Positions 12,612 to 33,627 of a stretch of DNA of 64,000 bases are shown here, in pieces (position 1 is the stretch's first letter; every line of letters starts with the position of its first letter). Both the position numbers and the translations under genes were made by a program. The notes beneath the pieces were generated by a model. The model did not search any database. It saw only the letters and a program-made list of their open reading frames with translations, and was not told the origin of the DNA. This stretch comes from a virus (taxonomy: Duplodnaviria > Caudoviricetes): the IMG/VR virus record IMGVR_UViG_3300009671_000009, positions 160,467-224,466 of that record. One strand, given 5' to 3'.

Positions 12612-15600
12612 TATCCTGCATTAAGCCTCCTGTCGATGCTTATGTCAAACATGGTATACAAGTCGAATGCAACTCCATGACAAGTGCCTTCTCCGTTTAC
12701 AATGACCAATTTTCTTTTTATGAAATCGTCTTTAATCATTTTTTCTCGGTTGGCCCTTGATTTTTCACTCTCACCAGGATTTGCTTTTATTTTGATTGCG
12801 CCATGTTTAAGATGAGCAATTGCATGCATCTTAGAATACTCTAGCTCCTGGGCTCCAAGAGATTGGCTGAATGTTTCAAATTTTCTTTTCATGGCATCCA
12901 TGTTGGCGATGCTTATACTTCCTGCCTGAACAGCAATGTCGAAACACAAAGCAAATCCTCTTTCGGTTTGCAATCCTAAGTATTTAAAGTAGCTTAAAGC
13001 TTTATTAAAATACTCTTCGGCTGCTTCCATTTGGTATCGCTGACAGTTAGGATCTGCACCTAGCCTATGAAAGTAAGTGTTCCATGGCTCACGGACATAT
13101 CTCTTGTAGTCCTTTCCTTTGGTGTAAGAAAGCTTGTCTCCCCAAGCGATAGCCTGAGAGGGTGTCATCCTAAGCATCCGCTGCAATTCTCCGTAGTCTT
13201 TTCCAAAGATTGACTGAACTGTTGATGAATGACTAGCAACCATCCTCTTGAGCAGTGCTTGCAAAGTTCCAGATTTTAAGTTGAATTGTAAAGTTCCAAA
13301 ACTTAGCCCTGCTCCATCAAAGTTACCAGAGACAACAGCAAATGAACCAGGAGGAGCAATACTCGTTTCAAACGTGCCTGTCATCATTAAGATTTTTTTC
13401 TTAAACTCATCGTCATAGTTGACTGTATTTGCACCAAAGAGTGCATCGCCAACTTCAACGCTGCTGCTTCCGAACAGTATCCTAGGACTGAGGTCTGGGT
13501 CTTCAGTATTAAACATTGTTTGAACCCACCCTGGCAAGGTTTGAATTATCTTATCCCACCAGCTGATCTTACTCTTGCCACCAACTGAACAGACAGTTAT
13601 TCCCTTGTGACCAGTTATCCCTGCAGAGAATTCTTGACCTTTAACTTGCAGTAGGCTCATAACAACACACTGAGCCTCGCTTAGTTTACGCTCTACCATG
13701 TTAGAAATAATCTTAGATGCTAATATCAGCGAAGCCGTGACAGCAAGCATAGCCCAACCAGGCACGGCAGCAGCTTTAACAAAGTTGCCTGCTTGAGTTA
13801 AAGCGTTTTGGGTTTGGCCTAAACCTGCACTGGCCTGCCACAACCCTTTGGTAACTACTCCTGTTCCGTATCTGTCCATTAACCATGTAGCACTTTGGGC
13901 TCCCCTGCCCATCATCTGTCCTAGCCTTAACAACATTGCTCCTCTAAGCGACCCTGCTCCTTGGCAAGTCAATCCCCAACTGAGTAATGTTCCCGATGCT
14001 ACTGAAGCTGCCCATACGAGCCGATCAGAAAATTCTGATTCCATTACTCCTGCAGCACAATCTGGGGAAACACTAGAGATGAAGCCTGTATCTAATGAAA
14101 ATTGATGAACAACTTGCTTTACAAATGCGGCACCGAACATCTCGTTATAAGCATCCCCGATATACATTCCGTCGTGGGGTTTGACGCTAGGATCACCCAT
14201 AATGACAAGATCCCCTTGATACATGTCTTTCATATAATCTCTGACAGTGCTCATGGCAAGGAACTGCGCTGTTTTCAAAGTGCCTAATTGCATTTGACAC
14301 CATTCATAAATTCCAGAAATAAACGATAAGAACGCAAAAGGCTTCCTTGCATATAGTTCGGAAACAATTGATGTGGTTCTTTGGATATGTGGATAAATAT
14401 CCTTATCAGCATTCGCTTTTACTGTTTCTTCAACAATAGAATGGTCTAGATTAAATATCTTGTCTCGAGCTACAGTTGCAATAACGTTATGATACATTCC
14501 TTGAGATGTAGCCTTCACTCTATTATCTAGTATATGTCCGAAAGAGGTATACAGATGCCATTGCCGAAACGGTTTTTTCTTAGCCCGCACGTAGAATCCT
14601 AGTTTTCTTTTTGTACCATCTTGATAAGAATGAGCTTCGGCGTATCCTTCCTTTTTAGTGGAAGATATGTCGTACCCATATGTTAGCGGCCACCACGGCT
14701 TTCCATAAAAGAGTGTTGATCTAAATTCAAACGGGTGAACTGCAGCTGTGTAATTTGGAACGTACATCGATAGTAGCTGTGCGACATCCCAGGTGGTCTT
14801 GCCTTCCATCATCAGATGGATATTAGGCTCGTCATTTGCATCCAGCCCCAGCTCGCCGTTTTCGCGAATGCCTGTTCCGTTTCCAGGATAGATGTTTTGT
14901 CCGAGTTCGCCCGCATCTTCATATAGGCCCATTAAAAAGTTCGGAGTTCCAAAGTGGGTTATTCCGTGACTGTCATCTAGCATCCAGTTTGTTTTGATCG
15001 CAGACCAAAAACGGCTGAAGCCTTGCTTGTCTCCTCTGATGAGCAGTCTAGCGAGCATGTTGCTAGGCTCTTCGCCTTGCTTGAGATTACCAGCAACCCA
15101 CCCGTTTCGGTAGTTTAGAACACTACATAACTCTAAAGCGTCGCTCTGCGCAATAACATTCAATATCTCTCCACAGCTGACTTCAGTAACTGTGCCGTTA
15201 AACATTATCGGCAACTCAGTTAAGTTGTTGCCATAACCCATTCTGACATGCAATCTTGCTCCAGGCAACAGACCCATATGCTCTTGAATAGCTGCGTGTC
15301 GTTGTTTCATTTCTTCATCGATAGAAAGCTGAAAGAATCGGTTTAGGTTGAACTCTACTTTTCCTATCTTGAATTTTCTATCTACAAATCTTTGATAGGT
15401 ATTGGCTACCGACATAAAAACAGTATCGGCAGCAATCTTTCTGCTCTTAACAACATCGATGCTGCTTATTGCGTTGAGCCCATAGAAGTTGTCCCAGAGT
15501 TTGTACCAACCTATTCTTACACCTTCATCTACAAGAAAAACATGACAAGTCGGAAAAGCCCTAGCCATAGTTCCTGTTTTGTCGTATGTCTTAGCGTCGT

Positions 15601-18228: not shown

Positions 18229-21200
18229 TTAATAGCTGTTTGGATCTTGGTTAACTCTCCCATAATTTAGAGCTTGACCTAAAAGATTTTGGGCAAAATT
18301 ATGATCAATAGTGCTGGTATCGTCTTTTTGGAATATGTTTACCGTACCTTCTTTGACTTGTTTCTGAACAGCATCAGATAAAGTACTCACATCGATATTC
18401 TTGCGGTTTTTAGCCTTGGCTGTAATTATTTGTCCATTGACCTGGGCTTCTACTCCGCTGTTCATTTCGACTCTGGCAACAGGAGTACCGTATCCCACTT
18501 CATTCGGAAGCATTTCGGGTTTTGGTTCTTTTCTGGCTGCGGTATTGGCAACAATAGCTCCAGCTCCAATGGCAGCACCTATCTTAGCCCACTTGGGGAT
18601 TTTCTTCCACAGACTTGCTTCCTGAACAACGTTCGCTGCAGTTTCTGCCATAGTGTCTTGTACAGCATCAGCTACAACAGTGGCTGCGCCTCCTGCTCTG
18701 GTCATTGTAGCAGCAATATCTTCTAAGTTATTCATATGCATATGTTTTAGCTTATCGTAGAACATCTCTTTGGCTATTGCGTATTGTCCACCTTGTGAAG
18801 TAGCTTTGGCAAAAGATTCGACCACATCAGTAGGTACAAAGCTTTTCATGTATGCTTCACTGTTAGGATCGATAGCCAGGTACTGAGAAAACATATTGGC
18901 AAGATCGCCGCCGCGCTTGCGGGAATATGCTGTATCACTAAAAAACATCTTGGAAGCTGCGCCACCAAAGTATTCTGGTGATACACGATCTACGGTATCT
19001 CGTACTTGTTCAATGTTCTGCAACATTTGATCTGCCATAGTAGTTTTAATTCTTGACATGGCAGTGTCGTTAATTAAATCGCCCTCGGCGACACCTAGCG
19101 ATGAAAGTACTTCTCCAGCTCCACTCCAGCTCAATGCTACTTCGTCACTAATGGCCGAAGCATAGGCTTCACCCCAGTCACGCACTAGCCCCTTACCACG
19201 CTTAAGAGATCCTTTAAGAGCATCTAATGCTTCGAACGAAAGAGGGTTTCCACCACGCTTACCCTTGAGGGTAACTTGTTCTGTTGTGGTTTCGGTAAAA
19301 GCATTAAGTAGTTCTATACGACGCATTCTTTCGGCTGGGTCATCAATACCTTCAAAAACAGCCATTCCTACGTCTCCATATCTTTGGGCAAGATTGTACA
19401 TTGGGCCTGCAGCTGTCTTTGAGAGATGAGCATTCATTACTCTTTCAACATAAGAATGGCCGCTGAAAAGATTAGGATCTTGCAAACTATTACCGAGGTA
19501 CTTTTCCCACGAGGTTCCAGCCTGAATACTCTGTTCGTTCAGGTATTTATATCTCAGATGATTGGCCAACCGATTGTTGTATTCAGTTTGTTTACGATGA
19601 ACACTCGCCAGGTTCATTTGCATTCTAGCAAATGATTCGTTGTCCATATCTAGCATTCTCTTAGAGAACGGAGATAGCATTGCAACTTGGTCACCATCGA
19701 AGTCTGCGTTGGCAAGTGCTGCATCTACTGCTGACATTCTAGCGACCCTGCCTTGGAGTCCTTCTTTGACCCTGATATTCATGATAGCAAAGTTGCCAGC
19801 CCATTCATTTGGGTCACGCATCATAATACCATAAAAGCCTTTATCGCTTCTAAGAGCTCTCATGATATTCTCGTCTGCTCCCTCAAAGAGCTCTCTTGCA
19901 AAGTCTTCGCCGATTTCCATAGTTCCACTTAAGTTGGCAGCAACTTCGAGATTAGCTGAAATATTTTGTGCCTTAAGTCGAGCTGAGGTAGGCATCCTAG
20001 TTTTCATTGCTCTTTCCATTACAGCGCCACCAGAAGAACTGATATTATATCCAAGTTCATCGATGTATTGTTTAACATGAGTCTTCATGGCACCAATGGC
20101 TTCTTCTCTAGTTCTGAAAGCGCCATGGGCAGCATCTACAGTATTAAATGACTCAACCGCTTTGATATCTTCAAATATGTTCATAAGCGCTCTGTTTTGG
20201 TTCTCAAGAAAAATTCTACCTTGGGAATCTCTACCGATAGGAGCTCTAGCCACTGGTAATGTAGAAATTGCTCTTCTGGCACTTCCAAGATCTACAGCGA
20301 TTTCAGTTGGAAGTTTTAGGGCAAACATTCCTTTTTCGGTGTCTAAAATAGTATCTTCGAGTTGTCCTCGCGAAAACCATGAACGACCAAGTATCTCGCC
20401 AAACCCTTTGTCGAAATCTCCAGCGTCAAGCTGAGCAAGTTCACCCATTCTGCTAGGGTCAACCAAGTATCCAATTGCCCTTGACATCTCACTAGCAGCT
20501 TGGCGATGCTTACCAAGACCAGGCATATCGCGAGCCTCATCTGTCATGTAATTAAGAATGGCATCCATGTCAGCTCCAATGATTGCGCCCTTGGCTTTCA
20601 ATGAGCGAATCTCTCTTGGGCCAATTCTGAGACCTGCTCCTACCGTTCTGTCCGAGCCCAGATAGTTAGAGAATCTAAAAGTTTCGTTGATATTCATACG
20701 GCGAAGCTCAACTAGTTCCTTATCTACTTCTCTTCCTCCTGGAAGAACAACAGACAAGTCATTGCCAAACTTTGCCATGAGACTATTCATTTTAGACTCA
20801 AAGGCTTCTGGCTGTAAACTTAGATTTTTATCGGCCAACATTTGTGTGGCATCTGGTACAACAAAACTCAGTCCTGTTCTGCCTGGCAATTGTACTAGTT
20901 CTGTTGCTCCAAACATACTCGACATTTCTTTACGAATTTCTTCAAGCTTCAACGGATTATTTTGGTATTGTTCTGCCAACAAAGCAAGCCTACCTTTTAG
21001 AGTAGCAGATAAGTCTTGATATTTTTTTGGATTTCCAAGATGTATAAGATGAGTATCTTGTCCAAAGATCTCATGCATTGCTTTGCTCACCGCATCAGAT
21101 TTATCTGGAGCACCAAGAAAGCTCATTGTGCTTTTCCTGGTATCATGCATTACTTTTACAGACTCTTCAGCTTCGTATATAGCCTCTGCATTCAAGCGAA

Positions 21201-24200
21201 GCATTCTTCTGCCTTCGGTATTTGTATACACCTCTGCACTTCTAAGGACTCCGCGGTCATCTTCAAACATTGTTTTAAATGTTTCTCGACCTTTGCGGTT
21301 CAAGATATCCTCTTCAAATAATGCTTGGTTTCTAGCTATCTCAAGAGGTGTTTTAGCTCCAGACTCAATCCACGAACTAACATCTTCCGTAAGCCTGGCA
21401 ACTCCTTTATCTAGATCGTCTAAGGCGACCTCAAACGACTTAGGTTGTCTTCCTTGCAACAATCCTCTTAGTTCTGGTGAACCAATAGAGCCTTGCTTCC
21501 ACGTACCAGGAGTAATAAAGTCATCACTCGTTAAACCGTATTTCGCAAACACTTTCTGTGCTTCGTCTGATCTGATAACATCCATGTACTCTTGTGAAGA
21601 TAACTGAATTGCTCCAATTGAAACACCTTTGGCAAGAGCAAATTCTGGAGCTACTGCTTTAGAAAGTTCGGTATAAGACTTCAACTCAGTTCGTGAAAGT
21701 ATGAACGGATTTAATCCTATACCTCTCCTGTGTGCAATATTTTGTAATTTATCTTCTAACTCTTTGACTGTGTATGGATAGTAATTTAACCACTGACGGA
21801 GATTTGGACGAGCAGCACTTTGCATGGCCCCAAATGGAGAAAAGTCTCTTTCTGTCATCATACCATAGAAGCCTCTGGATAGCTTTTCTGCCTTAACACC
21901 TTCTCCTGTCAATCTATTAATTATTTTTGCTTTGACTGGATCGTCTCCATATTTCTCTGTAGCCCATTCTTTGAACTCCATGAGAAATCTTCTTTGCTCA
22001 TGTAATTTAAGATCGTCTAGGCCTTTTGCTTGCCTGTTAAGTCTATCAGCTGCAAATTCAGGAACTAAAGCTCTTATATCAACTTCATGACGTCGTAAGA
22101 TATCGGCATCGTTACCTCTAACATTAAGACGAAATGCCTCTTCAAACGAATCTCTAGTTGATGCTCTCGAAGCTCCAGAGGCTTTTTCAAATATACCTCG
22201 GACTGCTCTACTAACTCTTCTTTGAGCTGCTTCCACATCAGGGGCACCAGATAAAGGAGCAAGATACTTGGCTACTGTACCTGCACGTCTGCCAAGAGTT
22301 TTAGTCAATTCATCGTATAGGTCAGTAAGTACGAACCCTTTACCTAAACGAAATTGATTGACTTTTGATTCTCCTCCTAATATTATATTCCCTGCGTCGG
22401 TCAGCATTGGGAATTCCATTACAACTGCATTTCGAGGAATTGCACCTGTCCTGGCTGCATTTAGTACACTTTCTAATGTACTTCTGTCACCGCCATGAAC
22501 ATAAAGATTTATTCTGTTGCCAGCTCTCGCTACATGTACACCAAGATTGCGATCTTCGTAAGACTTGATAATGCTTTCTAGAGCCTTACTCATTTTTCCC
22601 CTGTTAGTTTGTGATGTGGTTAATCCGTCAAACAAAGACGACACATAGTCGGGATATTCAAAAGCTCTTGATTGTCTCTTCGCAGCCGCAATAGAATCGG
22701 TGGCAATCTCCGCTGCTCTGGCCATGTCAATTTGCACCATTCTATTTTTAACGCTTTCTACTGGAACATTGATATTTTCTTTCAAGACTAAATCTGAATG
22801 TTGTAGGATATTTTGCAGCTTCTGGGCACGATAAAAAAATGGTGATTCCATGCCTGCAATTTGGTCAACGTGCGATTGAGTAAGATATCCTCTTTCCCGT
22901 AGATCAAACAGGGCTTCATTAAATAAAGTGTTTCTGGATACATCTGCCTCTAAAGATCCAGCCTTGACGCGACTGTCAAGATTACTTTTTAAGGCACCAG
23001 CAAATCCCTCTGATCTTATTGATATTCTATTGCCAAGAATTTCAACTGTTGGATCCCAGGCGCGGTTAACGACCTCAGTATCGACTGGGAATTCTTCTTT
23101 GAGTCTGCTATAGAAATTTTTAAACGCTAAGGTTTTTTCGTGCGGAGACAAATCAGACTGATCAGCAGCTTCAATAAATCTAGTTAAGGCTCCAGACTCT
23201 GCTGATATCCTACCATACATTGTACCAAGGTCTCGTTTTTCAGTAAATGAAAGTCTATTGTACTCATCAAGATCTCCACCAAAAGCCTTAACCATCCGTC
23301 TCATTGATGAGTAGCCTTTGCTGTCTACGCTACCCCACCTATGGATAGCTTGTCTGGCAAGATCTTCTAGGCCCTCTTGTCCAAGCACGGCACTCTCTGG
23401 ATTGATATATTGCAGAGCTCCTCCTTGGATCTTTTTTCTTACCTCATCAATACTTGATCCAGTTAAAAATGCAGATCTCCCTAAGTCTGTCGAATAGAAC
23501 TTAGCAATGAAGACATCATTATCTTGAAACATTCCTTCATAACGATAAACCGCTCTTCTGTTAAATACCCAGTTGTATACATTGCGTCCATCATCGTCTA
23601 TTGAAAAGTCTCTGCCTGTCCCTCTTACGCCTTGCATCGACATAAACATCTGACCAGGTTCCATAGGAGCCGTAGAATAGCGAAGCATGTTACGAACACC
23701 TGGTTTGATAGAAGGAGTAGAAACTACACCTTTGTCAAACATTCTAGCAATTGGGTCAAAAGCAAAGCCGAAGATTTGTTCTTGGGAAGCTATGTCAAAG
23801 GCACCCATGTGGGCTGAACCTTTAATACCCATAAGCCCCCTCATGGCATCCATGGTCAAAAGCCCTTCTTGGTTTGTGCGAAGAAATGTTCTTAGTTGAC
23901 CGCTTACTTCTCTTCCTATTTGTCTTCTAACTTTTCTGTTGGCTTGAGAGATGTCGGTAAAACCTCTCTCTTGCAAAGCCTTGTTAAGCAACATTCTGCG
24001 ATATAATATTGTCGGATCGTTATGCGTAATTCTGAATAGGTTGAGAACATCAATAGGATGATTTTGCTGACCATTGGCAATCCCTATCAATTCAGCCCAT
24101 TTCCCTTTGCCTCCTCCAGCATCTACAATCTTCTGCATTGCTGGGAAGTCGAATGCATCTGAGTTAAATCCAACCAGAGTAAATTGGCTTCCTAATAATC

Positions 24201-24924
24201 TGTGGGACTCAAAGAAATCTCTAACCTTGGTATGAACCTGATGTTCTGGAACACCGTGTCTAGTTATATTTGTAAGACCTCGCTCCATAAGATCATATTC
24301 CGCGTTGGTAAAATTAAGATTTCCTGTCGCTTTTTTGAGATTAAAATCGCTATGATATTTTACCATATTGGTAGCTGGATCAATTGTTCCTTCTTCGGCA
24401 TATCTCATAAAGCTGGCAATGGCAAAGCGCTCCTCTTTAGTGAGAGCAGCTCCAGATCTTGCTTTTGTTATTAACGATTTAAATCTTTCAGTCTTGATTT
24501 CATTTGGTGCCACAGCAATATTTAGCATGCCTTCTTGTCTTCCGAAGTTTGCGTATTTTGCCATGGCTATTTCAGTTGCATGGAAGAGATCGCTATCTAG
24601 TTTCAAACCTGTTGTTTCAAGGTCGAACATAAGAAAAGGATCCCTTCCAATTCTCTGTCTAAAATTCTGAAATGATTCAATCGTCTGCTGCGCATCAAAA
24701 TGACCCATACCTGGAGCACTTATATAACTCCAAGGAGCAGCATGTGGAATTGGATTAAGGGCTTTATTTGTCCAACTCTTCTGGGTATTGTCAATGCCAA
24801 ATCGCTCAGATCGTCCTGCGCCAGCATTAACATTTTTAAAACCTAATGATGAATAGAAATGCGAAGTATTATTAGAAACAACTTTGATTCCTGCATTTCT
24901 AAGCATCTCATCGTATTTGCCCAT
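18229..24924 (-). CDS. Single-chain two-barrel (beta+beta'-like) RNA polymerase with N-terminal DEDDh exonuclease; putative virion RNA polymerase (2231 aa)
   Basis: NADFDGD at 19690-19710, preceded by 'MRDP' and '[10 protein letters not shown]' (beta'-like). Beta-like motifs '[19 protein letters not shown]' (20584-20640) and '[11 protein letters not shown]' (K1257/K1264). DEDDh motifs 'FDLETTG', 'GFNSDAFD' and 'HMGAFD'. Confidence 0.85.
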   Translation of the reverse strand: [2231 protein letters not shown]

Positions 24925-24936
24925 TTTGTTCTCTCC

Positions 24937-27900
24937 TTAGAGTAAAGTGTCCATATTGTTGTTAACGAACTCTATTATCTCTTGCCTGCGATCCTTGTCA
25001 ATGTGTACATCCATTTGAACCCCAGCATTAGGTGAAGACTCTACTATTACGTCTACATCTTCGAGCCCTATGCCTTGCATGATCTCTATTAGATTTCGAC
25101 GCAGGTCTTCGCCCTTAAATGTTGATTTATTGATTGGCATCCCTGGTGCTTCATTGGTTTCTGACTTCTCAACATCCTGTCTCCAGAAACCGAACTCAGA
25201 AAGGTCAAGTCCTTCATTGCGCACTACGCGAACTTTAACATCGGCTAGATCTTTTGTTCCAGACCAGCCTTCCCATCCTGCCTGCGGAAGATAATGGTTT
25301 TTGAAATACTCTTCAAGATCAGGTCTTGCGTCTGGTCGCATTCCCCAGGCTGCCTGCAAGAATCTCCGCTCATTCTGAGGAACAAGTTCGAGGATTTCTT
25401 TGCGCTCTTCTGGCTTAGCTTTGATAAACTCAGCAAAGTATTCGCGTTCTTTTGAGGGCATGGCGCTCATTATTTTGCGAATGCCGCCTTCAGCATCAGC
25501 ACCATAGAGAGTCGATTCAGCAGCATTTTTATATTCGATAGCGATCCTTGCCCAGTTTGGAATATCTAGAAGTTCTTTATTTTTTGAGATAATATCTAGC
25601 TGTGCATTGATTTCTCTTAATCGAGGATCTTCTTTAAAATATTCGCTGAACTTAGTTTTGGTTTGATAATAAGCTCTTCTTTTGGCTTCCTTCTCATCAA
25701 ACTGTCCTTTAATTCTCTCTATCTCTTTGTCTTGAGCTCGATCAATTGATTTTCGCAGCCATTTTGGAGTGCGCTCTCTGATGCCACTCCATTTGTCTTC
25801 TGCTTCTTTAACAGCCGACCACTTGTCTTTGATGATATTGTCGATTTCCCGATCCCTTTTAGCTCTCATACGCTCAATGTCGCGTTTGTATGTCTCTGTC
25901 GCCTTGCGCTTTTTTGGTAGCTGCTCTAATTTTAGTTGTAATTTTTCGTTTTCAAGATCTCTTCTTAATTGCTTGGTTATGTTGCGCTTCTTCCTAAGTT
26001 CGTCGTAGAGTTTTTCGACGTTAAAGCCTTCTTCTTCGGCTCTGCGTTTTGCGTATTCATACATTCCTTGATACTTGATATAATCAAGAATATCAAAATA
26101 CTCATTTATCTCACGCTCTTTACGACGTCTCTCAGGAATCCATCTTTCGTCGCTAAACACATCATGAAGACTTCTTGCACCAGATAGAGCGGCAAATAAC
26201 AACGCTCCATACTTAGCGCCTTTAATTCTTCTTGGCATTGAAGTTCCATAAACCAAGCCGCCCAGAATACCTCCACTGATAGCAGCACTAAACATGTCTT
26301 TAGAAGCAATACCAGATATAGCAGGTTCGAGCTGGTCTCTAATAGACCATGACTGGAATGACTTACCGAAAACTTCCCTTCTTTTGTATTCTTCTAAGGG
26401 AGAAGCAACATGTAGGAATTTGGTATGGAAAGGAGTGTCTGCATGAGCAAAGCTCTCCCATAACGAACCCAACATAATTTCTGGGCCACTAAACCTGGCG
26501 TGAACTCCTGCTGAAGACCAATCTGTCTCTTTCTCAGTAGCTAGACCTGCACGCATCATTGCGTAGTTAAGATTTTTGCCTCGAGCAAATACGACCGCTG
26601 CCATACTTCCCATCGAATCATTAGTGCGTCGCTCGCTTTCGTTGACATCGACGCCGATAGTCAATGCAGCCCCAGGATAGATAAACTTGTTGATGAATTC
26701 TCTGGTTTGGTCTGCACCTTGGGCACTAGAGACAGTGATACCTGCCATCCTGATTGGAGTTGTCGGATGCTCGCGCGTTAAGAAGGTTTGATTATCTAAG
26801 ACCTCGGTAACATGAACCTTCTCTCTGACAATATCAGTATACTTAAAGCGATATGGAAAGAACCTGTGCTTCTTCTTCATGTCAGCTACTCTATCTTTGG
26901 TATCGACTATGAATTTTTTAATCTGTTCTTTCTCTTGTCGTTCAGAACCAGTAATTCCTGTAAGATCTGAATATTCTTGGCTTACATATTTAGCATAGTA
27001 TCTATATTCATCAGAATATGGAGCAACATCAGCCAGAATAGCAAATCGATGTAGTGGATCATAAAGTTCAAACTTGGATACTTTGCCTTCATCTATTAAT
27101 GCTTTGATTGTTGCTCTTATGCCTTCTAGTTTGTCAACCAGTCTTTCATATCTTCTGTTGTCAAAATCAAAGCCTATGTATTTTGTCTGTGACAAATCAT
27201 CTCGATTGACATATTGTATTCCGCCTTTTTTGATGCCCAAAGCGTGTTGATAAATTGTTATCTGATCAAGATGCTCTTCAAAAGCTCCTTCTTTCATCAT
27301 GATGTCCCAGCGTCTTTGATTTACTGTTTTAACATCTACTACAGTTGGAGTCCCGTGTAAGTTGAGAATAGCATCGTAGTGCCCTGTAGATCGAGCTTTT
27401 TCATCATACACAAGTTCTTCCATTGACATCAGAATACCTTTTTCTTGCCACATCCGCTGATATGCTTTGTGGATTTTTGTACCTTCCGCCATGGCATTTT
27501 CTGCACTATCAAAAATTGGGGCGTCTTCAATGTTTAAAAGCTTATTAATAATCGTCTCTTCGTCTTGACCAGCTAACGAAGCACGGATAACCATATTTTC
27601 TGGATGATAATTCCAGAGAGCTTCATATCCGCCACCAGGAAGTCTTGCTTCGCCGCGGGGAATCTTAACATAAGGATCGCCTCGCTTGAAGTCTAAGAAA
27701 TAGTTCTCTCCAGGCATCCAGCTTGGCATAGTATTGGGGATCAGATTTATATCTAAATCTTGTTGGTATCTTCGGTCTCTTGGTAAGAACCGACGTCCAA
27801 TTTCCGAAAACTCCCCACCAAAACCGCCAAGGTTTTGATCCCAGAACGCCCTAGAGTAACTAGTCATCCTAGAAGAATCTTGGAGAACTTTCATCGAATC

Positions 27901-30900
27901 AATTGGTTGTCCAGTAAGACCTTGAGCCATAAAGCCGTAAATACCGCCCATTTCAGTCAGGCCGTAGTATGTTTTGGCACCAACATATTGCAAGCTATTT
28001 GTCTGAATAGCTCCTTCAAGAGATGGAGGTTGTTGTGAAGTATCCCACCGCGACGGAACAAAAATTCTTTCTCTTAAGGATTTGGGCTTACCACTGTAGG
28101 CTCTGGCAAATTCCCCCTCATTGATTGACGCCACAGCAGCTCTCCCAGAGCCAGTAGAACCAGCAACGCGGTATCCTAACCCTTTTTCGCTACCTCTGGC
28201 AACTTCTTGGAAGTTTCTTGCTGGGCCAATGTCTCCAACAATAGAGATGTCGCCAGAAGGTGTGATGTAGGCAAAGTTACGATCTGCTTTATCTTTTTCT
28301 CTCTGATTAAGAGTAGAAATATGTTCTTGGGAAACTTCCGCGGCATATCGTCGCATTTCCTCTTCATGCATCCGTTTTGGAGGTTTGAGCATGTGCCCAA
28401 CAGCAGCTGACAACGTAGCTCCAGCAACAGGTATATCTGAAAACTCTGAAATAGGCCCTGTTGTAGGGTAGGGCCTGTCGTAGTAATGTTTACGCTCCCA
28501 ATGATACGGATCTGTGATAAAATGTCTAATAGGAGCCAGCGGATATCTTGGAGTAGGAAACCATGCATTTCTATAATACTCTTCCCTAGAACCGTACATA
28601 ACGTCCGTCATCTTATAGTCAGCGTATGCCATTCTTCGTTCACTTGGAAGATAGTATTCTATCTTTCCTCCGACGTAAGGGGTATTATGAAGAATTACTG
28701 ACAAAGAACAAAAACTATGGTTTTCGTCAACCTCATAGTCATAAACTATACCACGATAGCCACTATCAACAACCTCGCGAATCTTAATATAAACATATTC
28801 ATCATCAATGTATATATATTTGTGAGTTGAGTTGCTTTTTTGCGGAATAATCTTTTGGTCTATTTTATAAGATTCTAGTTGTAATGCTAAATCTACTGCT
28901 CCTTTGCCATCAACAATGAGTCTCCAACCTACGAATTCTTTGCCGTCTAGCAATGTATTGTGTTTTATAACGCTATTGGGAATTCCAAAAGAGAACAATA
29001 CGTTTCTTACAAATAACAGATGCTCTAAAGTTGCAGAAGTTATATTAAGTTGGCAGGAATTTCCCACGACAACACAGTGTCCATCCCCGTCGAACATTCC
29101 TGCAATGAATCCCAACATGAAGTCCTTGCACTTGGTCATAAGTATACGAGAAGGACTCTTTTTTCCAGCGCAGTACAGGACTTTTTCAATCCATTTAACT
29201 AATTTTCTAGAACATGCAATAATTTTTATTCCATTGTCTGAAGTTTGTTCTAATCTAGTTTTGCAACCAAAATATTTATTGACAAAATATGCAACAAAGT
29301 TTGCCAAGTGTGATTCTTCAGAATTCAGATAAATCTCTATAGAATATCCTTTACCCTTTACTTTTTTCTTAATAGAACCTTCTGCAAGATACAGTCCTAA
29401 GAAATAGCCTACTTCTTTATTAGAAGAAATATCATATATGGGCTCTGTACATGTACCAACCTTTGGCCTTGGGAATGCTAAATAGTCTCCTGCTTCCAAG
29501 TCCCTTGCCATTGTCCATTTTGGAGTCCAAACAAAACGTTCATTACAAAACCTGGGATATGGACACTTATCGCACATCTTATTCTGCCTATCGGGTCTGC
29601 AATCAACAACGGTGTTTGATGGACACTTTTTCTTTTTAACTGCAAGATACGGATGGTTATCGGTCGTAGTCGTTGCAATAGGAAATGTGTGAAGTTGAAC
29701 TTCTGGAGCCCATTCGTCGTCACGCATGTTTCTTACAATTACATCTTTGACAGGTTTTAACTCTCCAGTGTGAGTAAGAAGAAGATCTCCGATTGCAACT
29801 TGTTCAGCGCGCTTTGATTCGGCAAAATTAACCAGAATAAGGGTATCTGGTGTGACACAGTTTCCAAGGAACCACCATCTACCTTTGCGCATTGGGCGCA
29901 CGCCTGCGTCTTCTTCACGGACTTCTTCTAAGCTCTTAGTGGGATCGAGGAAATGGAACCCTGGTAACTCCCATATTAGTTCGGAACCAGGAGTTAGCCT
30001 CGCGGAACGTTTAAAGAAATCGGTGATACCAGTGGCGTCACGCACAGAAGCAAGTCCTTCTCTGGCACCTTCTTTGACATCTGCCAGCCATTGCTGGCCA
30101 GTCTTGCCTGTGATATTTCCGAATTCCCAGGATAGATAACCAAGAGCGCCGACACCCAATAATGCTGGTAAGTATCGTTTAGTTATCATATTCCCAAAAA
30201 GTGAAGCTGCAGAGCTTGTGCTTTCTGGGCCAAGTCCGACACCTAAGTAGGATAGAGCTTCTTGAATACGTCCAAACGGCATGTGATAAGCAAACATAGA
30301 AGTTCTAGTAAACTTATCCATGTTATATCTGCCCGCAGTAAATTGTCTGGCCCAGTCGAGCATTTTGTCCTGAGCAGCAGAACGTTCTTTCTCGGCACCG
30401 TTAAGAGCAGCGATGAGATCTTTACCAGTTACTTTTACTGAATCTCTAACCATAAAGAACTCAGTACCTCTGGCGATTTCTTTTTCTGCCGTCAACGGCA
30501 TTGGGCCGTAAGAATACCACGGAGCACGATTGCTCATATAGTCTGTAGCGCCAGCGCTAATGATACTGATGCTATTATCTAATTCATTTTTTATATCATC
30601 AACTGATGCATGACTCATGAACACATCAAGGGCCATGCCTTTTGCGTTGATGTCTCCTGTTTGTATGAGATTAGACGCAATATCACGGAAATCTCTGCCA
30701 GAGTTTTCGCGTACCTGCTCAATTAACTCTTGTTGAACTAAGCGCTTGATACTCTCTTGCTTTGTAATCATATCTCGCTCGGCAAAAAATTCACCGAATT
30801 GCCCAATATCTGGCCACTTATTGGAATAGGTCTTCATATTCTTCATAAAAGAATAAGGGTCTCTACTATAAGCGTTCCAGTTTGTAAGGAACTCCTCGCC

Positions 30901-32487
30901 AAACGAACGGGATATCTTATCTTTGTTGTGAACAGCTAAAGTCTCGAAAGCGCTAAGAATACCCTCGTCGGTATCTAGACTAAACTTAATACCTGGATAA
31001 AGGTTTTCGAGATCTTTTCCAAATGCCCGATTGAAGACATGATCTGGAACAGGGCGCGAATCGAAGTGAATAAACTTTTTTAATCTATTTGTTGCATCAA
31101 TAAGATCTCTCTGATCAACGGGCTCAGAAATTCTTGACAACAAATTGCCTTCCCAGCTAGGATTTTTATGCTTTCTGAACAGGTTAGTTAGTTTGTCAAG
31201 AATGCTGTTTGATTCTTGTTCTCCTATGTCAAGCCAGTCAAGTACTTTGCGCCAGCCTTCTCGGCTTCCTCTTCTTTGCTGGTACGCGGCGAGATCTCCA
31301 ACAGAACCAGAAACCTGACCGAATATCCTAGCAGCCTGACCCCGTTGGCTAGGAGCAAGCCCTATATTTTGGGCCATGACCTTACCAGAGGTCATGGAAT
31401 AAACTTTACCGCCAATATATGCCATATCTTCTGGCAGTTTCCATAGTCCAAGGTTTCCAACTACTTGCGAGTTCTGGATACCCTTGCCGAGAGGGAAGAT
31501 AAATTGGTTTTCACCTTGTCTAAAAATATGCATAAACGGCATCATTCTACGTTCTTGGTATTTACCAAGACCAAACAGATGATAAGGCCCAATGCCCACG
31601 AATGGAATATGAAACTCTGAAGATGCTTCAATCGCTTTGTCTACGCCTTTCCATATTGAACGTAGATCAATGAAGTCCCCATCTGCCGTTTTGAAAAGGC
31701 CCTTATTGACAATTAAATTCTCAAATCTTTTATCTTTACGAACAAGTCCTCTTAGAACGCTTTCTTGGAAGGGAGTTTGTAGGCTTACGGGCTTTCCTCT
31801 TACAAATAGTCGTTCTTGTCCGAACTTGAAGTCTTTCATTCTTTTAGACAGAATGTCTCCTGCTGTTGCATGTTTTAAAGGAGATCTGTCTGTGTATTTA
31901 CTAACTAAAAGATCGTCATATCTCTCACGAAAGAATCGCATTTGTGCTCCAGCCGCTTTTCGCTGAGCTTGATTCAACATAACAGACTTTCTAATACCTG
32001 ATATTAGTTCTGTACGATCCATATCAAGCTTGCCAGCATTAGAAATTATCATATCGGCAAGTCTGCCAGGTTCATAGACGGCATTGCTAAATAAGGATAA
32101 AGTTCGCTCTTTGTTCGATCCTTTAATTATATCAAGCATAGCATCTCTGATATCCGCATGCCCTCCAAAGTATTCAAGGGCAGCATTCATCCTTGTCTGA
32201 GATAAAACGCTTTGATTGAGTTTATGTAAATCATAGTGACGCTGTAAGATAATGTGTTCTAAATCTGTTGTGTCTGCTGTCCTTGGAAGATGCTTGGCCA
32301 TTCTGGCCATTACCTTCTGACCAGGACGAGACATGGCGGCCTTACCAAGCAAAAAGCCCAGGCCAGCAGCAGCCGCGACCTTCGCTATCGGCGACCATTC
32401 TATTCTGTCCTGAGCTGATTGTAAGCGTTCAGAATACCTGGATGAGGTACGCTCATCCAGGTATTTGCTAAATCTGTTTTCTGCCAT
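24937..32487 (-). CDS. Tape-measure-like giant virion protein with intein, PD-(D/E)XK nuclease and SNase-like domain (2516-aa precursor, ~2124 aa spliced)
   Basis: Directly downstream of the tail chaperones; largely helical with Gly/Ala hydrophobic segments. PD-(D/E)XK: 'GTKIH...GHYDAIL...VVDVKT...QITIY'. SNase-like: 'VTEVLDNQTF...IRMAGI...NLNYAMMRAGLA'. Confidence 0.72.
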   Translation of the reverse strand: MAENRFSKYLDERTSSRYSERLQSAQDRIEWSPIAKVAAAAGLGFLLGKAAMSRPGQKVMARMAKHLPRTADTTDLEHIILQRHYDLHKLNQSVLSQTRMNAALEYFGGHADIRDAMLDIIKGSNKERTLSLFSNAVYEPGRLADMIISNAGKLDMDRTELISGIRKSVMLNQAQRKAAGAQMRFFRERYDDLLVSKYTDRSPLKHATAGDILSKRMKDFKFGQERLFVRGKPVSLQTPFQESVLRGLVRKDKRFENLIVNKGLFKTADGDFIDLRSIWKGVDKAIEASSEFHIPFVGIGPYHLFGLGKYQERRMMPFMHIFRQGENQFIFPLGKGIQNSQVVGNLGLWKLPEDMAYIGGKVYSMTSGKVMAQNIGLAPSQRGQAARIFGQVSGSVGDLAAYQQRRGSREGWRKVLDWLDIGEQESNSILDKLTNLFRKHKNPSWEGNLLSRISEPVDQRDLIDATNRLKKFIHFDSRPVPDHVFNRAFGKDLENLYPGIKFSLDTDEGILSAFETLAVHNKDKISRSFGEEFLTNWNAYSRDPYSFMKNMKTYSNKWPDIGQFGEFFAERDMITKQESIKRLVQQELIEQVRENSGRDFRDIASNLIQTGDINAKGMALDVFMSHASVDDIKNELDNSISIISAGATDYMSNRAPWYSYGPMPLTAEKEIARGTEFFMVRDSVKVTGKDLIAALNGAEKERSAAQDKMLDWARQFTAGRYNMDKFTRTSMFAYHMPFGRIQEALSYLGVGLGPESTSSAASLFGNMITKRYLPALLGVGALGYLSWEFGNITGKTGQQWLADVKEGAREGLASVRDATGITDFFKRSARLTPGSELIWELPGFHFLDPTKSLEEVREEDAGVRPMRKGRWWFLGNCVTPDTLILVNFAESKRAEQVAIGDLLLTHTGELKPVKDVIVRNMRDDEWAPEVQLHTFPIATTTTDNHPYLAVKKKKCPSNTVVDCRPDRQNKMCDKCPYPRFCNERFVWTPKWTMARDLEAGDYLAFPRPKVGTCTEPIYDISSNKEVGYFLGLYLAEGSIKKKVKGKGYSIEIYLNSEESHLANFVAYFVNKYFGCKTRLEQTSDNGIKIIACSRKLVKWIEKVLYCAGKKSPSRILMTKCKDFMLGFIAGMFDGDGHCVVVGNSCQLNITSATLEHLLFVRNVLFSFGIPNSVIKHNTLLDGKEFVGWRLIVDGKGAVDLALQLESYKIDQKIIPQKSNSTHKYIYIDDEYVYIKIREVVDSGYRGIVYDYEVDENHSFCSLSVILHNTPYVGGKIEYYLPSERRMAYADYKMTDVMYGSREEYYRNAWFPTPRYPLAPIRHFITDPYHWERKHYYDRPYPTTGPISEFSDIPVAGATLSAAVGHMLKPPKRMHEEEMRRYAAEVSQEHISTLNQREKDKADRNFAYITPSGDISIVGDIGPARNFQEVARGSEKGLGYRVAGSTGSGRAAVASINEGEFARAYSGKPKSLRERIFVPSRWDTSQQPPSLEGAIQTNSLQYVGAKTYYGLTEMGGIYGFMAQGLTGQPIDSMKVLQDSSRMTSYSRAFWDQNLGGFGGEFSEIGRRFLPRDRRYQQDLDINLIPNTMPSWMPGENYFLDFKRGDPYVKIPRGEARLPGGGYEALWNYHPENMVIRASLAGQDEETIINKLLNIEDAPIFDSAENAMAEGTKIHKAYQRMWQEKGILMSMEELVYDEKARSTGHYDAILNLHGTPTVVDVKTVNQRRWDIMMKEGAFEEHLDQITIYQHALGIKKGGIQYVNRDDLSQTKYIGFDFDNRRYERLVDKLEGIRATIKALIDEGKVSKFELYDPLHRFAILADVAPYSDEYRYYAKYVSQEYSDLTGITGSERQEKEQIKKFIVDTKDRVADMKKKHRFFPYRFKYTDIVREKVHVTEVLDNQTFLTREHPTTPIRMAGITVSSAQGADQTREFINKFIYPGAALTIGVDVNESERRTNDSMGSMAAVVFARGKNLNYAMMRAGLATEKETDWSSAGVHARFSGPEIMLGSLWESFAHADTPFHTKFLHVASPLEEYKRREVFGKSFQSWSIRDQLEPAISGIASKDMFSAAISGGILGGLVYGTSMPRRIKGAKYGALLFAALSGARSLHDVFSDERWIPERRRKEREINEYFDILDYIKYQGMYEYAKRRAEEEGFNVEKLYDELRKKRNITKQLRRDLENEKLQLKLEQLPKKRKATETYKRDIERMRAKRDREIDNIIKDKWSAVKEAEDKWSGIRERTPKWLRKSIDRAQDKEIERIKGQFDEKEAKRRAYYQTKTKFSEYFKEDPRLREINAQLDIISKNKELLDIPNWARIAIEYKNAAESTLYGADAEGGIRKIMSAMPSKEREYFAEFIKAKPEERKEILELVPQNERRFLQAAWGMRPDARPDLEEYFKNHYLPQAGWEGWSGTKDLADVKVRVVRNEGLDLSEFGFWRQDVEKSETNEAPGMPINKSTFKGEDLRRNLIEIMQGIGLEDVDVIVESSPNAGVQMDVHIDKDRRQEIIEFVNNNMDTLL
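28684..29859 (-). mobile_element. Intein with LAGLIDADG homing endonuclease (392 aa)
   Basis: Starts C877 'CVTPDTLILV', block B 'TTDNHPYL', ends 'VYDYEVDENHSFCSLSVILHN' followed by Thr. LAGLIDADG helices 'YFLGLYLAEGS' and 'FMLGFIAGMFDGDG'. The core is visibly AT-richer than the exteins. Confidence 0.95.
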
Positions 32488-32490
32488 TGA

Positions 32491-33018
32491 TTAAGGCCTC
32501 CTTGGGAACGCTGGAGGTGGGGGGAGGGGCGGAACTTGAGGTGTTTGTTGGGGATCTTGAAATCCGATTTGTAAACCTCTCAAGTTTAGAGACCACTCAG
32601 CCTGAGCATATCTTTCGAATAGCTTCTTCCTTGTCCAGGTTTCTATCTCTTCTTGTCGATATTGAGGAAATGCAGTCATTATGACACATTCCATTTGTCT
32701 GTCTAAATCAAGTTCAAGTTCTTGTTTTGCTTGTTCTATTAGGGTTAAAGAAGTACTAGCATTACAGAAACCAGATGTGTTGAGAATTGAAAGACAAAGC
32801 ATTGCTGGAAATCCTGCTTTGCAGTTACCCAAGTCAAGGCCTTCTGGCTGTATTAAACATAAGTAAACTACATTTTCTTCAAAATCAAACCCGTCTGGAC
32901 TAGATTGAAGCAAGACTCTGAATTCTTTTCGGGTGAGTGGCCTGAAGTAACAATCTGTATTATCAACGTTTATACTATATACTTCGTCATACGTAGCAAA
33001 TGCTTCTTCTAAGGTCAC
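32491..33018 (-). CDS. Tail assembly chaperone (paralog 2, with C-terminal extension)
   Basis: Lies between tube genes and the tape-measure-like gene; 'YFRPLTRKEF' chaperone-like motif; similar to 33037-33627. Confidence 0.65.
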   Translation of the reverse strand: MTLEEAFATYDEVYSINVDNTDCYFRPLTRKEFRVLLQSSPDGFDFEENVVYLCLIQPEGLDLGNCKAGFPAMLCLSILNTSGFCNASTSLTLIEQAKQELELDLDRQMECVIMTAFPQYRQEEIETWTRKKLFERYAQAEWSLNLRGLQIGFQDPQQTPQVPPLPPPPAFPRRP

Positions 33019-33036: not shown

Positions 33037-33627
33037 TTATAGGCGCTCTGGTTCTGATGTTGGAACGAATCCTGATTTGTCCATAATTTGCTCTGCTAGT
33101 AAAGTAGGAGTACCTGCTTTTCCAGAAATCATGGCTGTAATACTATATCCGATTGGCCATAGTACGCAACGTTGACAGATATTTTCTTCTCGGAACATTG
33201 TGTCGCCATTCTTAACTTGGATCCGTAATACCTCTTTATACTCGTTCCGTCTCAGACAACGCCAGATGAATGTCTCGTCGCCGAACGATGATGAATAGAC
33301 TTCACCGAATTGTTGCTTCCACATTTCAACTAATCCTTGTGGTGGGCCGCCAGGGAAAATTTCTTCCTCGTCTTCTGGAGACATAGGGGCATAGCCAACG
33401 TCAGATCTCTGGATAGGCATTTGTGTTTGTGACATCCCCATAGGCATCATAGGCACTTGAGGAATTTGCGGGATTAAATTTGGATCCCCAGGATCTCCCC
33501 CAGGAATACCTACAAAATCGTTAGAATCTACAGGCACCATCACTTGTCCTCCGATATTTAGAGCTCCAGGAATATTCATTCCTTCTTGCTCTTTCTTAAC
33601 TTGGGCTGCTGATTTTCTTGCTGCCAT
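33037..33627 (-). CDS. Tail assembly chaperone (paralog 1)
   Basis: 'WKQQFGEVY...FIWRCLRRNEY' resembles myovirus tail chaperones; synteny. Confidence 0.65.
   Translation of the reverse strand: MAARKSAAQVKKEQEGMNIPGALNIGGQVMVPVDSNDFVGIPGGDPGDPNLIPQIPQVPMMPMGMSQTQMPIQRSDVGYAPMSPEDEEEIFPGGPPQGLVEMWKQQFGEVYSSSFGDETFIWRCLRRNEYKEVLRIQVKNGDTMFREENICQRCVLWPIGYSITAMISGKAGTPTLLAEQIMDKSGFVPTSEPERL

What the first reader, a model, noticed from the sequence alone, without database searches (positions are those of the whole stretch)
26530..27560. PD-(D/E)XK nuclease plus degenerate SNase fold embedded in the tape-measure-like protein
Seen in sequence: 'AMAEGTKIHKAYQ...EELV...GHYDAIL...VVDVKT...HLDQITIYQHALG' is an apparently intact RecB/Cas4/lambda-exonuclease-type active site without Fe-S cysteines. 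Downstream, 'VTEVLDNQTF...IRMAGITVSS...NLNYAMMRAGLA' follows the thermonuclease pattern, but the usual DGDT and D-x-PE acidic residues are replaced, so it is probably binding-only. Established: known tape-measure cargo domains are mostly cell-wall hydrolases. Inference: an injected nuclease for host DNA attack, genome-end processing or circularisation, or anti-defence.
Basis: partly seen in the sequence, partly recalled or inferred. Interest (0 to 1): 0.75.

Follow-up and report, generated by a model that had tools for sequence, protein, structure and literature searches.

The report
Cas4-like nuclease inside giant virion protein
A 2,516-residue tail-module protein of an uncultured 224-kb phage really does contain an intact-looking DNA-end nuclease (a Cas4 relative that has lost its iron-sulfur cluster) followed by a catalytically dead staphylococcal-nuclease-fold domain, so this phage probably carries a ready-made nuclease in its particle, a cargo that no paper I found describes.

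Summary
Observation confirmed. Residues ~1632-1806 of the ORF at 24937-32487 (-) fold as a lambda-exonuclease/Cas4-type PD-(D/E)XK nuclease (Z 14-15.5). Its signature H-E-D-[D/E]xK-QxxxY is kept in 171 of 181 related modules, and none of the 181 has a cysteine. Residues ~1886-2000 fold as staphylococcal nuclease (Z 12.4) but lack D21, D40, E43 and R87 family-wide.

The host protein is the ortholog of Bacillus phage 0305phi8-36 gp145, a virion protein found by mass spectrometry. It lies directly after the two tail chaperonins. The published tape-measure assignment in that phage goes to the next gene, which here carries an exact NADFDGD RNA-polymerase motif. "Tape-measure-like" is therefore positional only.

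The nuclease module is an optional cassette: 18 of 58 homologs lack it cleanly at the same site. It forms a clade apart from the phage's own free-standing 4-Cys Cas4-like exonuclease. The mature protein is cysteine-free.

Best reading: an active DNA-end nuclease delivered with the genome. Delivery, activity and target are inferred, not shown.

The scan has found the same module in several other uncultured phage genomes. I found no paper describing it. Verdict: a new variant of known kinds (enzyme cargo in tail-lumen or ejected phage proteins; phage Cas4-like exonucleases).

The parts
24937..32487 (-). Giant protein P0001 (2516 aa including the intein; 2124 aa mature), ortholog of 0305phi8-36 gp145
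   Evidence: ORF list, translation, tblastn to ORF145 'virion structural protein, identified by mass spectrometry'
27070..27594 (-). Cas4/lambda-exonuclease-type PD-(D/E)XK nuclease module, residues ~1632-1806, Fe-S-free, an optional cassette
   Evidence: phrog_1706 E 1.4e-11. Fold Z 14-15.5. Cleanly absent in 18 of 58 homologs with the flanks joined
27469..27471 (-). H1673 codon (GTxIH helix), 179/181 conserved
27418..27420 (-). E1690 codon, 177/181 E
27373..27375 (-). D1705 codon (motif II, GHYD). 176 D + 5 E of 181. Aligns with D99 of Cas4 SSO0001
27328..27336 (-). D1718-V-K1720 (motif III, D/ExK). D 119 + E 60 of 181; K 179 of 181. Aligns with E113-x-K115 of SSO0001
27250..27264 (-). Q1742-x3-Y1746 (RecB/Cas4 motif QhxxY). 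Q 177/181, Y 178/181
27595..27690 (-). Upstream scaffold motif (residues 1600-1631, GDPY...GE.RLPG.GYE), invariant whether or not the module is present
26833..27069 (-). Helical linker (residues 1807-1885) with the near-invariant ILADVAPYS motif (27013-27039)
26488..26832 (-). Staphylococcal-nuclease-fold (OB) domain, residues ~1886-2000, catalytically degenerate, present in all homologs examined
   Evidence: Fold Z 12.4. Profile vs PDB E 8e-5. Column counts at the SNase catalytic positions
28684..29859 (-). Intein with LAGLIDADG endonuclease (residues 877-1268). Holds all 14 Cys of the ORF
   Evidence: Pfam LAGLIDADG_3 E 5e-12 and Intein_splicing. Boundaries and Cys positions
33037..33627 (-). 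Ortholog of tail chaperonin gp143
   Evidence: BLASTP 48% identity, E 4e-32
32491..33018 (-). Ortholog of tail chaperonin gp144
   Evidence: BLASTP 35% identity, E 2e-22
18229..24924 (-). Second giant (2231 aa, Cys-free) at the gp146 'hypothetical tape measure' position. Has exact NADFDGD (19690-19710) and FDLETTG (24607-24627)
12611..18217 (-). Third giant, baseplate hub homolog (gp147 position), 17 Cys
   Evidence: phrog_20474 E 4e-177

Best explanation
P0001 is a member of a large, unnamed family of ~2,000-residue, cysteine-free virion proteins whose prototype is 0305phi8-36 gp145. These proteins are encoded directly after the tail chaperonins and before an RNA-polymerase-like second giant and the baseplate hub. 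A Cas4-derived PD-(D/E)XK nuclease that has lost all four Fe-S cysteines is inserted as a self-contained cassette (residues ~1632-1806) into a loop of the conserved scaffold. Just downstream lies a conserved staphylococcal-nuclease-fold domain without its catalytic residues, which most likely serves as a nucleic-acid- or protein-binding module. The catalytic signature is under strong purifying selection, so the domain is most likely an active Mg-dependent DNA-end nuclease (5'->3' resection and/or ssDNA cleavage, as in Cas4, RecB-family and lambda-exo enzymes). I infer that the protein is stored in the particle, probably in or at the tail lumen. I further infer that it leaves with the DNA and acts in the first moments of infection, before any phage gene is expressed, on DNA ends. 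The most economical target is the entering, terminally redundant phage genome. Attack on host or competing DNA is the main alternative. Shown: the folds, motif conservation, cassette behaviour, synteny, and virion status of a cultured ortholog. Inferred: activity, ejection and target.
For: Folds: model pLDDT 87.5. VIA Z 15.5 (LHK-Exo), 14.8 (Cas4 SSO0001), 14.2 (lambda exo); SNase Z 12.4. Foldseek E 2e-6. The profile alignment places D1705 on D99, D1718/K1720 on E113/K115 and Q1742/Y1746 on the QxxxY of SSO0001.

Selection: 171 of 181 modules keep H-E-D-[DE]-K-Q-Y at ~30% overall identity, and all 181 have 0 Cys.

Family size: 498 clusters at 50% identity with E<=1e-3, and 144 of 181 hosts are >=1400 aa.

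Virion status: gp145 is annotated 'identified as virion protein by mass spectrometry' and has the same motifs. Other cultured homologs are annotated as structural.

Synteny: chaperonin orthologs lie upstream, and the giant-giant-hub order is kept in three metagenomic loci.

Translocation-compatible chemistry: the mature P0001 and the second giant have no Cys, against 1.6% genome-wide and 17 Cys in the hub.

Precedents: the tape-measure-fused virion RNA polymerase of P23-45 (PMC10770324), and Mu gp43/N, a tail protein that enters with the DNA and circularises it (PMC11915804).

The cultured relative has 6,479-bp terminal repeats.
Against: There is no biochemical or proteomic data for this phage. 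Virion status rests on homology at ~35% identity. Nothing shows that gp145-type proteins leave the particle or reach the cytoplasm. The module is dispensable: it is absent in 18 of 58 homologs, with 4-6 gain/loss events. A core genome-processing role would therefore need a substitute in those phages. Pfam does not reach its gathering score for either domain. A few lineages have degenerate motifs (P0031, P0050, P0067, P0068, P0086). An active nuclease made late in a cell full of phage DNA needs some restraint that I cannot identify.
Confidence: 0.6

Rival explanations
1. The same delivered nuclease, but its target is host, plasmid or competitor DNA, or a nucleic-acid component of a defence system. 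It would be an accessory weapon or anti-defence cargo rather than a processor of the phage's own genome ends.
For: Patchy presence and absence with repeated loss is typical of arms-race accessories. Homologs swap in other enzyme cargo such as subtilase PF00082. The polyvalent-protein concept predicts virion-packaged enzymes aimed at host nucleic acids (PMC5512222). This genome also has a free-standing Cas4-like exonuclease that could cover housekeeping recombination.
Against: Cas4/lambda-exo-type enzymes need DNA ends or ssDNA, and only a few copies per virion would be delivered, which makes them poor at destroying a chromosome. 0305phi8-36 has no other Cas4-like gene. No defence-related partner domain was found.
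Confidence: 0.25
2. The domain no longer cuts. It is kept as a DNA-end-binding or structural module, for example to hold the leading genome end in the tail or shield it from RecBCD/AddAB, together with the dead SNase-fold domain.
For: The neighbouring SNase-fold domain has clearly become non-catalytic yet is conserved in all 58 homologs. Mu gp43/N protects and circularises ends without being a nuclease (PMC11915804).
Against: Binding-only PD-(D/E)XK domains normally lose the metal ligands. Here D, D/E and K are kept in >97% of 181 modules, and the whole seven-residue signature in 94%.
Confidence: 0.08
3. The nuclease works in the producing cell, late in infection. It might trim DNA at the portal-tail junction during assembly or degrade host DNA, and its presence in the virion is incidental.
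For: The gene lies in the late structural block, so the protein is abundant late.
Against: Insertion into a cysteine-free giant scaffold, and loss of the Fe-S cluster that the free-standing paralog keeps, point to adaptation to life in the particle. A late cytoplasmic role could be served by a small free enzyme.
Confidence: 0.07

Closest known systems
Cas4 nucleases (Sulfolobus SSO0001, PDB 4ic1; Cas4-Cas1 7mi4/7mi5) and free-standing phage Cas4-like exonucleases (phrog_1706/1990), including this phage's own paralog at genome 113,699-114,439
   Same: Same fold (Z 14.8, rmsd 2.7, 147 residues aligned). Same RecB motifs II and III and the same QhxxY. The N-terminal helix also aligns.
   Different: All four Fe-S cysteines are gone in all 181 modules, whereas the paralog group keeps C...CxxCx5C. 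The module is not free-standing but inserted in a ~2,000-aa virion protein. It has only 24% identity to the paralog and forms a separate clade (support 1.0).
Lambda exonuclease / LHK-Exo / RecE / MGME1 (Fe-S-free PD-(D/E)XK 5'-3' exonucleases)
   Same: Best structural matches: LHK-Exo Z 15.5, lambda exo Z 14.2 with 180 residues aligned. Like the module, they have no Fe-S cluster.
   Different: No sequence-family hit to YqaJ/lambda-exo models. The QxxxY motif and PHROG hits place the module with RecB/Cas4. A toroidal oligomer could not be tested.
Bacillus phage 0305phi8-36 gp145 (ORF145, virion structural protein)
   Same: Ortholog: same position after the gp143/gp144 chaperonins, the same nuclease motifs and the same SNase-fold domain. 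35% identity over residues 1600-2000.
   Different: gp145 has no intein and has a ~65-aa insert between motif II and motif III. No nuclease was annotated or discussed for it.
Thermus phage P23-45 gp96, tape measure protein with a fused virion RNA polymerase (PMC10770324)
   Same: A nucleic-acid enzyme built into a giant tail-lumen protein and delivered with the DNA. Here the adjacent giant carries NADFDGD.
   Different: The enzyme there is an RNA polymerase, and that paper mentions no nuclease. Here the nuclease sits in a separate polypeptide whose ruler role is unproven.
Phage Mu gp43 (N), DNA circularisation protein / tube initiator (PMC11915804)
   Same: A tail-tip protein that enters with the genome and acts on its ends.
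   Different: It is not a nuclease and has an unrelated fold. The likeness is functional analogy only.
Staphylococcal nuclease (PF00565) and inactive SN-like domains
   Same: Same OB-type fold (Z 12.4) and the same sequence pattern: (R/K)LAG(I/V) matches RLxGID, and N.N..L...G.A matches the C-terminal helix.
   Different: D21 is N/G/Q, D40 is variable, E43 is variable, and R87 is T/S. Only R35 survives, as R/K in 48 of 58.
Polyvalent proteins of phages and conjugative elements (Iyer et al. 2017, PMC5512222)
   Same: A giant multidomain protein encoded among virion genes, with swappable enzyme domains. One BFVD family member is named 'Large polyvalent protein associated domain-containing'.
   Different: No MuF, zincin peptidase or other hallmark polyvalent domains were found here. 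That paper lists neither a RecB/Cas4-type nor a staphylococcal nuclease domain.

Membership tests
Cas4 / RecB-family PD-(D/E)XK nucleases | PD-(D/E)XK alpha-beta core fold | tested here: met
   VIA Z 14.8 to 4ic1 and 13.9 to 7mi5. Foldseek E 3e-5
Cas4 / RecB-family PD-(D/E)XK nucleases | Motif II D, motif III (D/E)xK, motif QhxxY | tested here: met
   D1705, D1718-x-K1720 and Q1742-x3-Y1746 align to SSO0001 D99, E113-x-K115 and QxxxY. Kept in 171/181 modules
Cas4 / RecB-family PD-(D/E)XK nucleases | Four-cysteine Fe-S cluster (one N-terminal Cys plus C-terminal CxxCx5C) | tested here: not met
   0 Cys in residues 1601-1800 and in all 181 modules. The free-standing paralog has the four Cys
Cas4 / RecB-family PD-(D/E)XK nucleases | Curated sequence-model score | tested here: inconclusive
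   Pfam PDDEXK_1 scores 12.5 bits against a cut-off of 22, but phrog_1706 gives E 1.4e-11 and the family profile vs 4ic1 gives E 4e-5
Cas4 / RecB-family PD-(D/E)XK nucleases | Metal-dependent nuclease activity | not testable with these tools
   Needs an enzyme assay
Lambda exonuclease / YqaJ family | Fold and catalytic D...ExK | tested here: met
   Z 14.2, 180 residues aligned to 6m9k_B. LHK-Exo Z 15.5
Lambda exonuclease / YqaJ family | Sequence-family membership and toroidal trimer | tested here: inconclusive
   No YqaJ hit in Pfam at E<=1. The oligomeric state was not modelled
Staphylococcal nuclease (PF00565) | SNase OB-fold | tested here: met
   Z 12.0-12.4, rmsd 2.4-2.7, 109-115 residues over model 286-401
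Staphylococcal nuclease (PF00565) | Ca2+ ligands D21, D40, T41 and catalytic R35, E43, R87 | tested here: not met
   Q1900 (N33/G12/D2 of 58), T1918 (variable), S1921 (variable), S1961 (T38/S15). Only R1913 is kept, as R28/K20
Tail tape measure protein | Gene directly downstream of the tail chaperone pair | tested here: met
   Orthologs of gp143/gp144 lie immediately upstream
Tail tape measure protein | Mostly extended helical ruler whose length sets tail length | tested here: inconclusive
   The two modelled stretches (401 + 621 aa) are globular or compact helical domains. Only residues ~2100-2330 look like a charged coiled coil. Tail length is unknown. The literature assigns the ruler to gp146 (PMC2147016)
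Polyvalent proteins (Iyer 2017) | Several unrelated effector domains in one giant polypeptide encoded among virion genes | tested here: inconclusive
   The virion-gene context is met. There is one live nuclease, one dead nuclease fold and an intein, and a subtilase in some homologs. The hallmark MuF and zincin domains were not found

The most novel reading that the evidence does not exclude
The first two tail-module giants form one delivered nucleic-acid machine. Giant 1 carries the Fe-S-free Cas4-like nuclease plus a dead SNase-fold clamp. Giant 2 carries a DEDDh exonuclease motif plus a two-barrel RNA polymerase with NADFDGD. The nuclease, tethered at the cytoplasmic mouth of the entry channel, would resect the leading end of the entering, terminally redundant genome. 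That would expose single-stranded DNA for annealing of the terminal repeats (protein-primed circularisation before any gene is expressed) or for loading of the virion RNA polymerase.
Probability: 0.15. Interest if true: 0.85.

Novelty: new variant of a known kind. Interest (0 to 1): 0.62.

Why it matters
Known enzyme cargo of tail-lumen or tape-measure proteins is mostly cell-wall hydrolases and, since 2024, one RNA polymerase (P23-45). A conserved and apparently active DNA nuclease built into a virion protein would add a new class of pre-made enzyme that phages bring into the cell. The module is found in hundreds of sequence clusters of uncultured jumbo phages and in the cultured Bacillus phage 0305phi8-36. 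This bears on how large terminally redundant genomes survive and are processed in the first seconds of infection. It also gives a natural example of a Cas4-type nuclease made independent of its Fe-S cluster. A cultured relative exists, so the idea can be tested directly.

Tried and rejected
- Megablast of the gene against 50,697 phage records found no match.
- The search for related loci in viral contigs with the single domain found nothing.
- phmmer of the single sequence against PDB gave only noise. The family profile was needed.
- A search for fused forms of 4,404-5,000 aa found none. That is weak evidence, and the >7,000-aa fusions reported earlier by the scan are outside the searchable range.
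- The ESM Atlas returned only unnamed 'hypothetical protein' clusters.
- I modelled the conserved 620 residues around the intein site and upstream of the nuclease, using the intein-free homolog P0004 (pLDDT 75, pTM 0.70). No PDB fold match was found: Foldseek E > 8, best VIA-wide Z 3.2. BFVD returned only family members. The rest of the scaffold therefore stays unexplained.
- The second giant gave no PHROG, Pfam (E<0.01) or PDB sequence hit. It gave only a weak RNA_pol_Rpb1_2 hit (E 0.015) plus the exact NADFDGD motif.
- The idea that the nuclease makes ssDNA template for the virion polymerase finds no support in the P23-45 paper.
- Thomas et al. 2007 (the virion proteomics paper) is not held, so gp145 copy number could not be checked.
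- Chance motif match: rejected (E-values and Z-scores above).
- Repeated capture from the resident Cas4-like gene: rejected. The modules form one clade apart from the paralog group.
Full report
**Context.** The window is the last 64 kb of a single 224,466-bp virus record whose ends overlap by 123 bp. All genes around the finding are on the minus strand. Reading downstream, the order is as follows:
- a tail sheath (35797-37440);
- three tube paralogs;
- two small genes (33037-33627 and 32491-33018);
- three giant ORFs of 2516, 2231 and 1868 aa.

The only cultured relatives found by tblastn are jumbo Bacillus phages headed by 0305phi8-36, plus a Moorella phage. The two small genes are orthologs of the 0305phi8-36 tail chaperonins gp143 and gp144 (48% and 35% identity). 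The 2516-aa ORF (P0001) is the ortholog of gp145. The GenBank record calls gp145 a virion structural protein identified by mass spectrometry. Hardies et al. assigned the tape-measure role to the next gene, gp146, mainly from its length, and noted that the chaperonins are 'one gene removed' from it (PMC2147016). The giant / giant / hub order is kept in three metagenomic relatives.

**The observation.** Pfam alone is not convincing: PDDEXK_1 E 0.14, SNase E 0.058. The other evidence is stronger:
- PHROGs gives phrog_1706 (Cas4-like) at E 1.4e-11.
- A profile of 33 family members hits Cas4 SSO0001 (4ic1) at E 4e-5 and thermonuclease at E 8e-5 among PDB sequences.
- An AlphaFold2 model of residues 1600-2000 built on that alignment has mean pLDDT 87.5.
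- Model residues 32-204 match LHK-Exo (Z 15.5), Cas4 SSO0001 (Z 14.8), lambda exonuclease (Z 14.2, 180 residues), MGME1 and Cas4-Cas1.
- Model residues 286-401 match staphylococcal nuclease (Z 12.4, rmsd 2.4-2.7, 110-115 residues).

Both fold calls are therefore correct.

**Is the PD-(D/E)XK site intact and conserved?** The profile alignment puts D1705 on D99, D1718-x-K1720 on E113-x-K115, and Q1742-x3-Y1746 on the QxxxY of SSO0001. I collected 181 instances of the module from two searches and aligned them to a module HMM.
- 171 keep the whole signature H1673, E1690, D1705, D/E1718, K1720, Q1742, Y1746.
- Five more have only the conservative D-to-E change at motif II.
- About five are degenerate.
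- All 181 contain no cysteine.

Overall identity among these sequences is about 30%, so this is purifying selection on catalysis.

**The SNase-fold domain.** The pattern (R/K)(L/M/F)AG(I/V) corresponds to RLxGID of the SNase family. Counting 58 homologs at the catalytic positions gives:
- D21 equivalent: N/G/Q (D in 2 of 58);
- D40: variable;
- E43: variable;
- R87: T/S;
- R35: the only survivor, as R or K in 48 of 58.

The domain is nevertheless present in every homolog examined, together with the near-invariant ILADVAPYS helix before it. It is a dead nuclease fold kept for another purpose. Binding is a reasonable inference, not a result.

**The module is a cassette.** In 18 of 58 giant homologs the ~175 residues are missing cleanly. 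The conserved flank ...RLPG.GYE.L..LHP then joins directly to ...FDRFxILADVAPYS, and no module is detectable anywhere else in those proteins. On a tree built from 1,407 scaffold columns the absences are scattered. This amounts to 4 parsimony changes, or 6 losses if there was a single gain. One module-less protein is nested within a module-bearing clade with support 0.96-1.0. Some members, including gp145, carry a 27-70-aa insert between motif II and motif III. A scan of 1.84 billion representative proteins with the module alone found 498 clusters (173 at E<1e-10). Nearly all are ~2,000-aa proteins with the module at about residue 1,200-1,700.

**Origin.** The same genome encodes a free-standing 236-aa Cas4-domain exonuclease at genome 113,699-114,439 (phrog_1990 E 5e-37). 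It has the canonical N-terminal Cys and C-terminal CxxCx5C. It is 24% identical to the module, and the alignment includes the N-terminal helix, where the cluster Cys is replaced by D1642. In a joint tree the 4-Cys paralog group is a separate clade (support 1.0) from all virion modules. This fits one ancient capture rather than repeated capture, although sampling of free-standing forms was small. 0305phi8-36 has no Cas4-like gene other than gp145 itself.

**Chemistry of the carrier.** All 14 cysteines of the ORF lie inside the intein (residues 877-1268), so the spliced 2,124-aa protein has none. The 2,231-aa second giant also has none. The hub has 17, and long ORFs of the genome average 1.6% Cys. 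121 of 162 family giants are Cys-free. I read the loss of the Fe-S cluster and the avoidance of cysteine as adaptation to storage in an extracellular particle and perhaps to passage through a narrow channel. This is inference.

**The neighbour.** The second giant shares with gp146 only its C-terminal ~150 residues and a D(L/I)ETTGL exonuclease motif. It has a weak Pfam hit to RNA_pol_Rpb1_2 (E 0.015) and an exact NADFDGD at residues 1739-1745. A homolog in another contig has a weak RNase_T hit. This recalls Thermus phage P23-45, whose 5,002-aa tape measure protein carries a virion RNA polymerase recognised by DFDGD (PMC10770324). That paper mentions no nuclease. The tail module here therefore seems to encode two giants with nucleic-acid enzymes.

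**What the rest of P0001 is.** It has an N-terminal hydrophobic segment (residues 34-52), Gly-rich hydrophobic stretches and a highly charged region at ~2100-2330. The 620 residues around the intein site and upstream of the nuclease give a fairly confident model with no match in the PDB. 'Tape-measure-like' holds for gene position only.

**Mechanism.** The best-supported reading is a virion-borne, catalytically competent Cas4-type DNA-end nuclease delivered with the genome. Two observations favour action on the phage's own ends. Enzymes of this type need ends or ssDNA, and only a few copies can be delivered. The cultured relative has 6,479-bp terminal repeats, and Mu gp43/N shows that a tail protein can enter the cell and work on genome ends (PMC11915804). 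The patchy distribution of the module argues instead for an accessory, conflict-related role, as in polyvalent proteins (PMC5512222). I cannot separate these two readings.

**Literature and earlier scan notes.** Full-text searches found no paper describing a nuclease in gp145-type or tape-measure proteins. The scan itself has reported the same Fe-S-free Cas4-like module in giant tail-module proteins of several other uncultured phages. My results agree with those notes and were obtained independently on this DNA. Their claim of >7,000-aa RNAP-nuclease-ruler fusions could not be tested here.

Noticed in passing
window 28684-29859 (-): Intein of 392 aa (Cys877 to Asn1268, +1 Thr) with a LAGLIDADG endonuclease. 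It splits the invariant motif RKGRxW..GN|TPF.GGK of the giant protein and holds all 14 cysteines of the ORF. Homologs carry inteins at this and other sites.
   Followed up: partly
window 18229-24924 (-), motifs at 19690-19710 and 24607-24627: The second giant, at the position of the published 'hypothetical tape measure' gp146, has an exact NADFDGD (residues 1739-1745), a weak Pfam RNA_pol_Rpb1_2 hit and an FDLETTG DEDDh-like motif shared with gp146. It is cysteine-free. It looks like a virion RNA polymerase fused to a tape-measure-type C-terminus.
   Followed up: partly
genome G000:C1:113699-114439 (-) = L002:8697-9407 (-), outside the window: Free-standing 236-aa Cas4-domain exonuclease with the four Fe-S cysteines (phrog_1990 E 5e-37). 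It is a paralog of the virion module at 24% identity.
   Followed up: yes
P0001 residues ~714-876 and 1269-1630 (window ~27597-28683 and 29860-30348); modelled on L005:9050-10912: Highly conserved ~620-residue scaffold region (motifs such as TDPYH.E.KHY.DRPY and NPI.NTMP.WMPG). It gives a fairly confident AlphaFold2 model (pTM 0.70) but has no structural relative in the PDB (best Z 3.2).
   Followed up: partly
window 12611-18217, 18229-24924, 24937-32487: Marked cysteine avoidance in the first two giants (0 Cys in 2,124 and 2,231 mature residues). The hub has 17 Cys and the genome average is 1.6%. 121 of 162 family giants are Cys-free.
   Followed up: partly
homologs P0009, P0041, P0046: Some gp145-family giants carry a subtilase (PF00082) domain, with or without the nuclease module. 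The scaffold therefore accepts different enzyme cassettes.
   Followed up: no
L010 (EF583821.1 208026-211682): 0305phi8-36 gp99 is annotated as a hypothetical RNA polymerase of the QDE-1/YonO type next to the right terminal repeat. With an RNAP-like gp146 this would parallel the virion/non-virion polymerase pair of P23-45.
   Followed up: no
genome ends (G000:C1:1-123 and 224344-224466): A 123-bp identical overlap of the record's ends is what IMG/VR classes as 'direct terminal repeats'. It is more likely an assembly overlap, so the true termini and any long terminal repeat of this phage are unknown.
   Followed up: no
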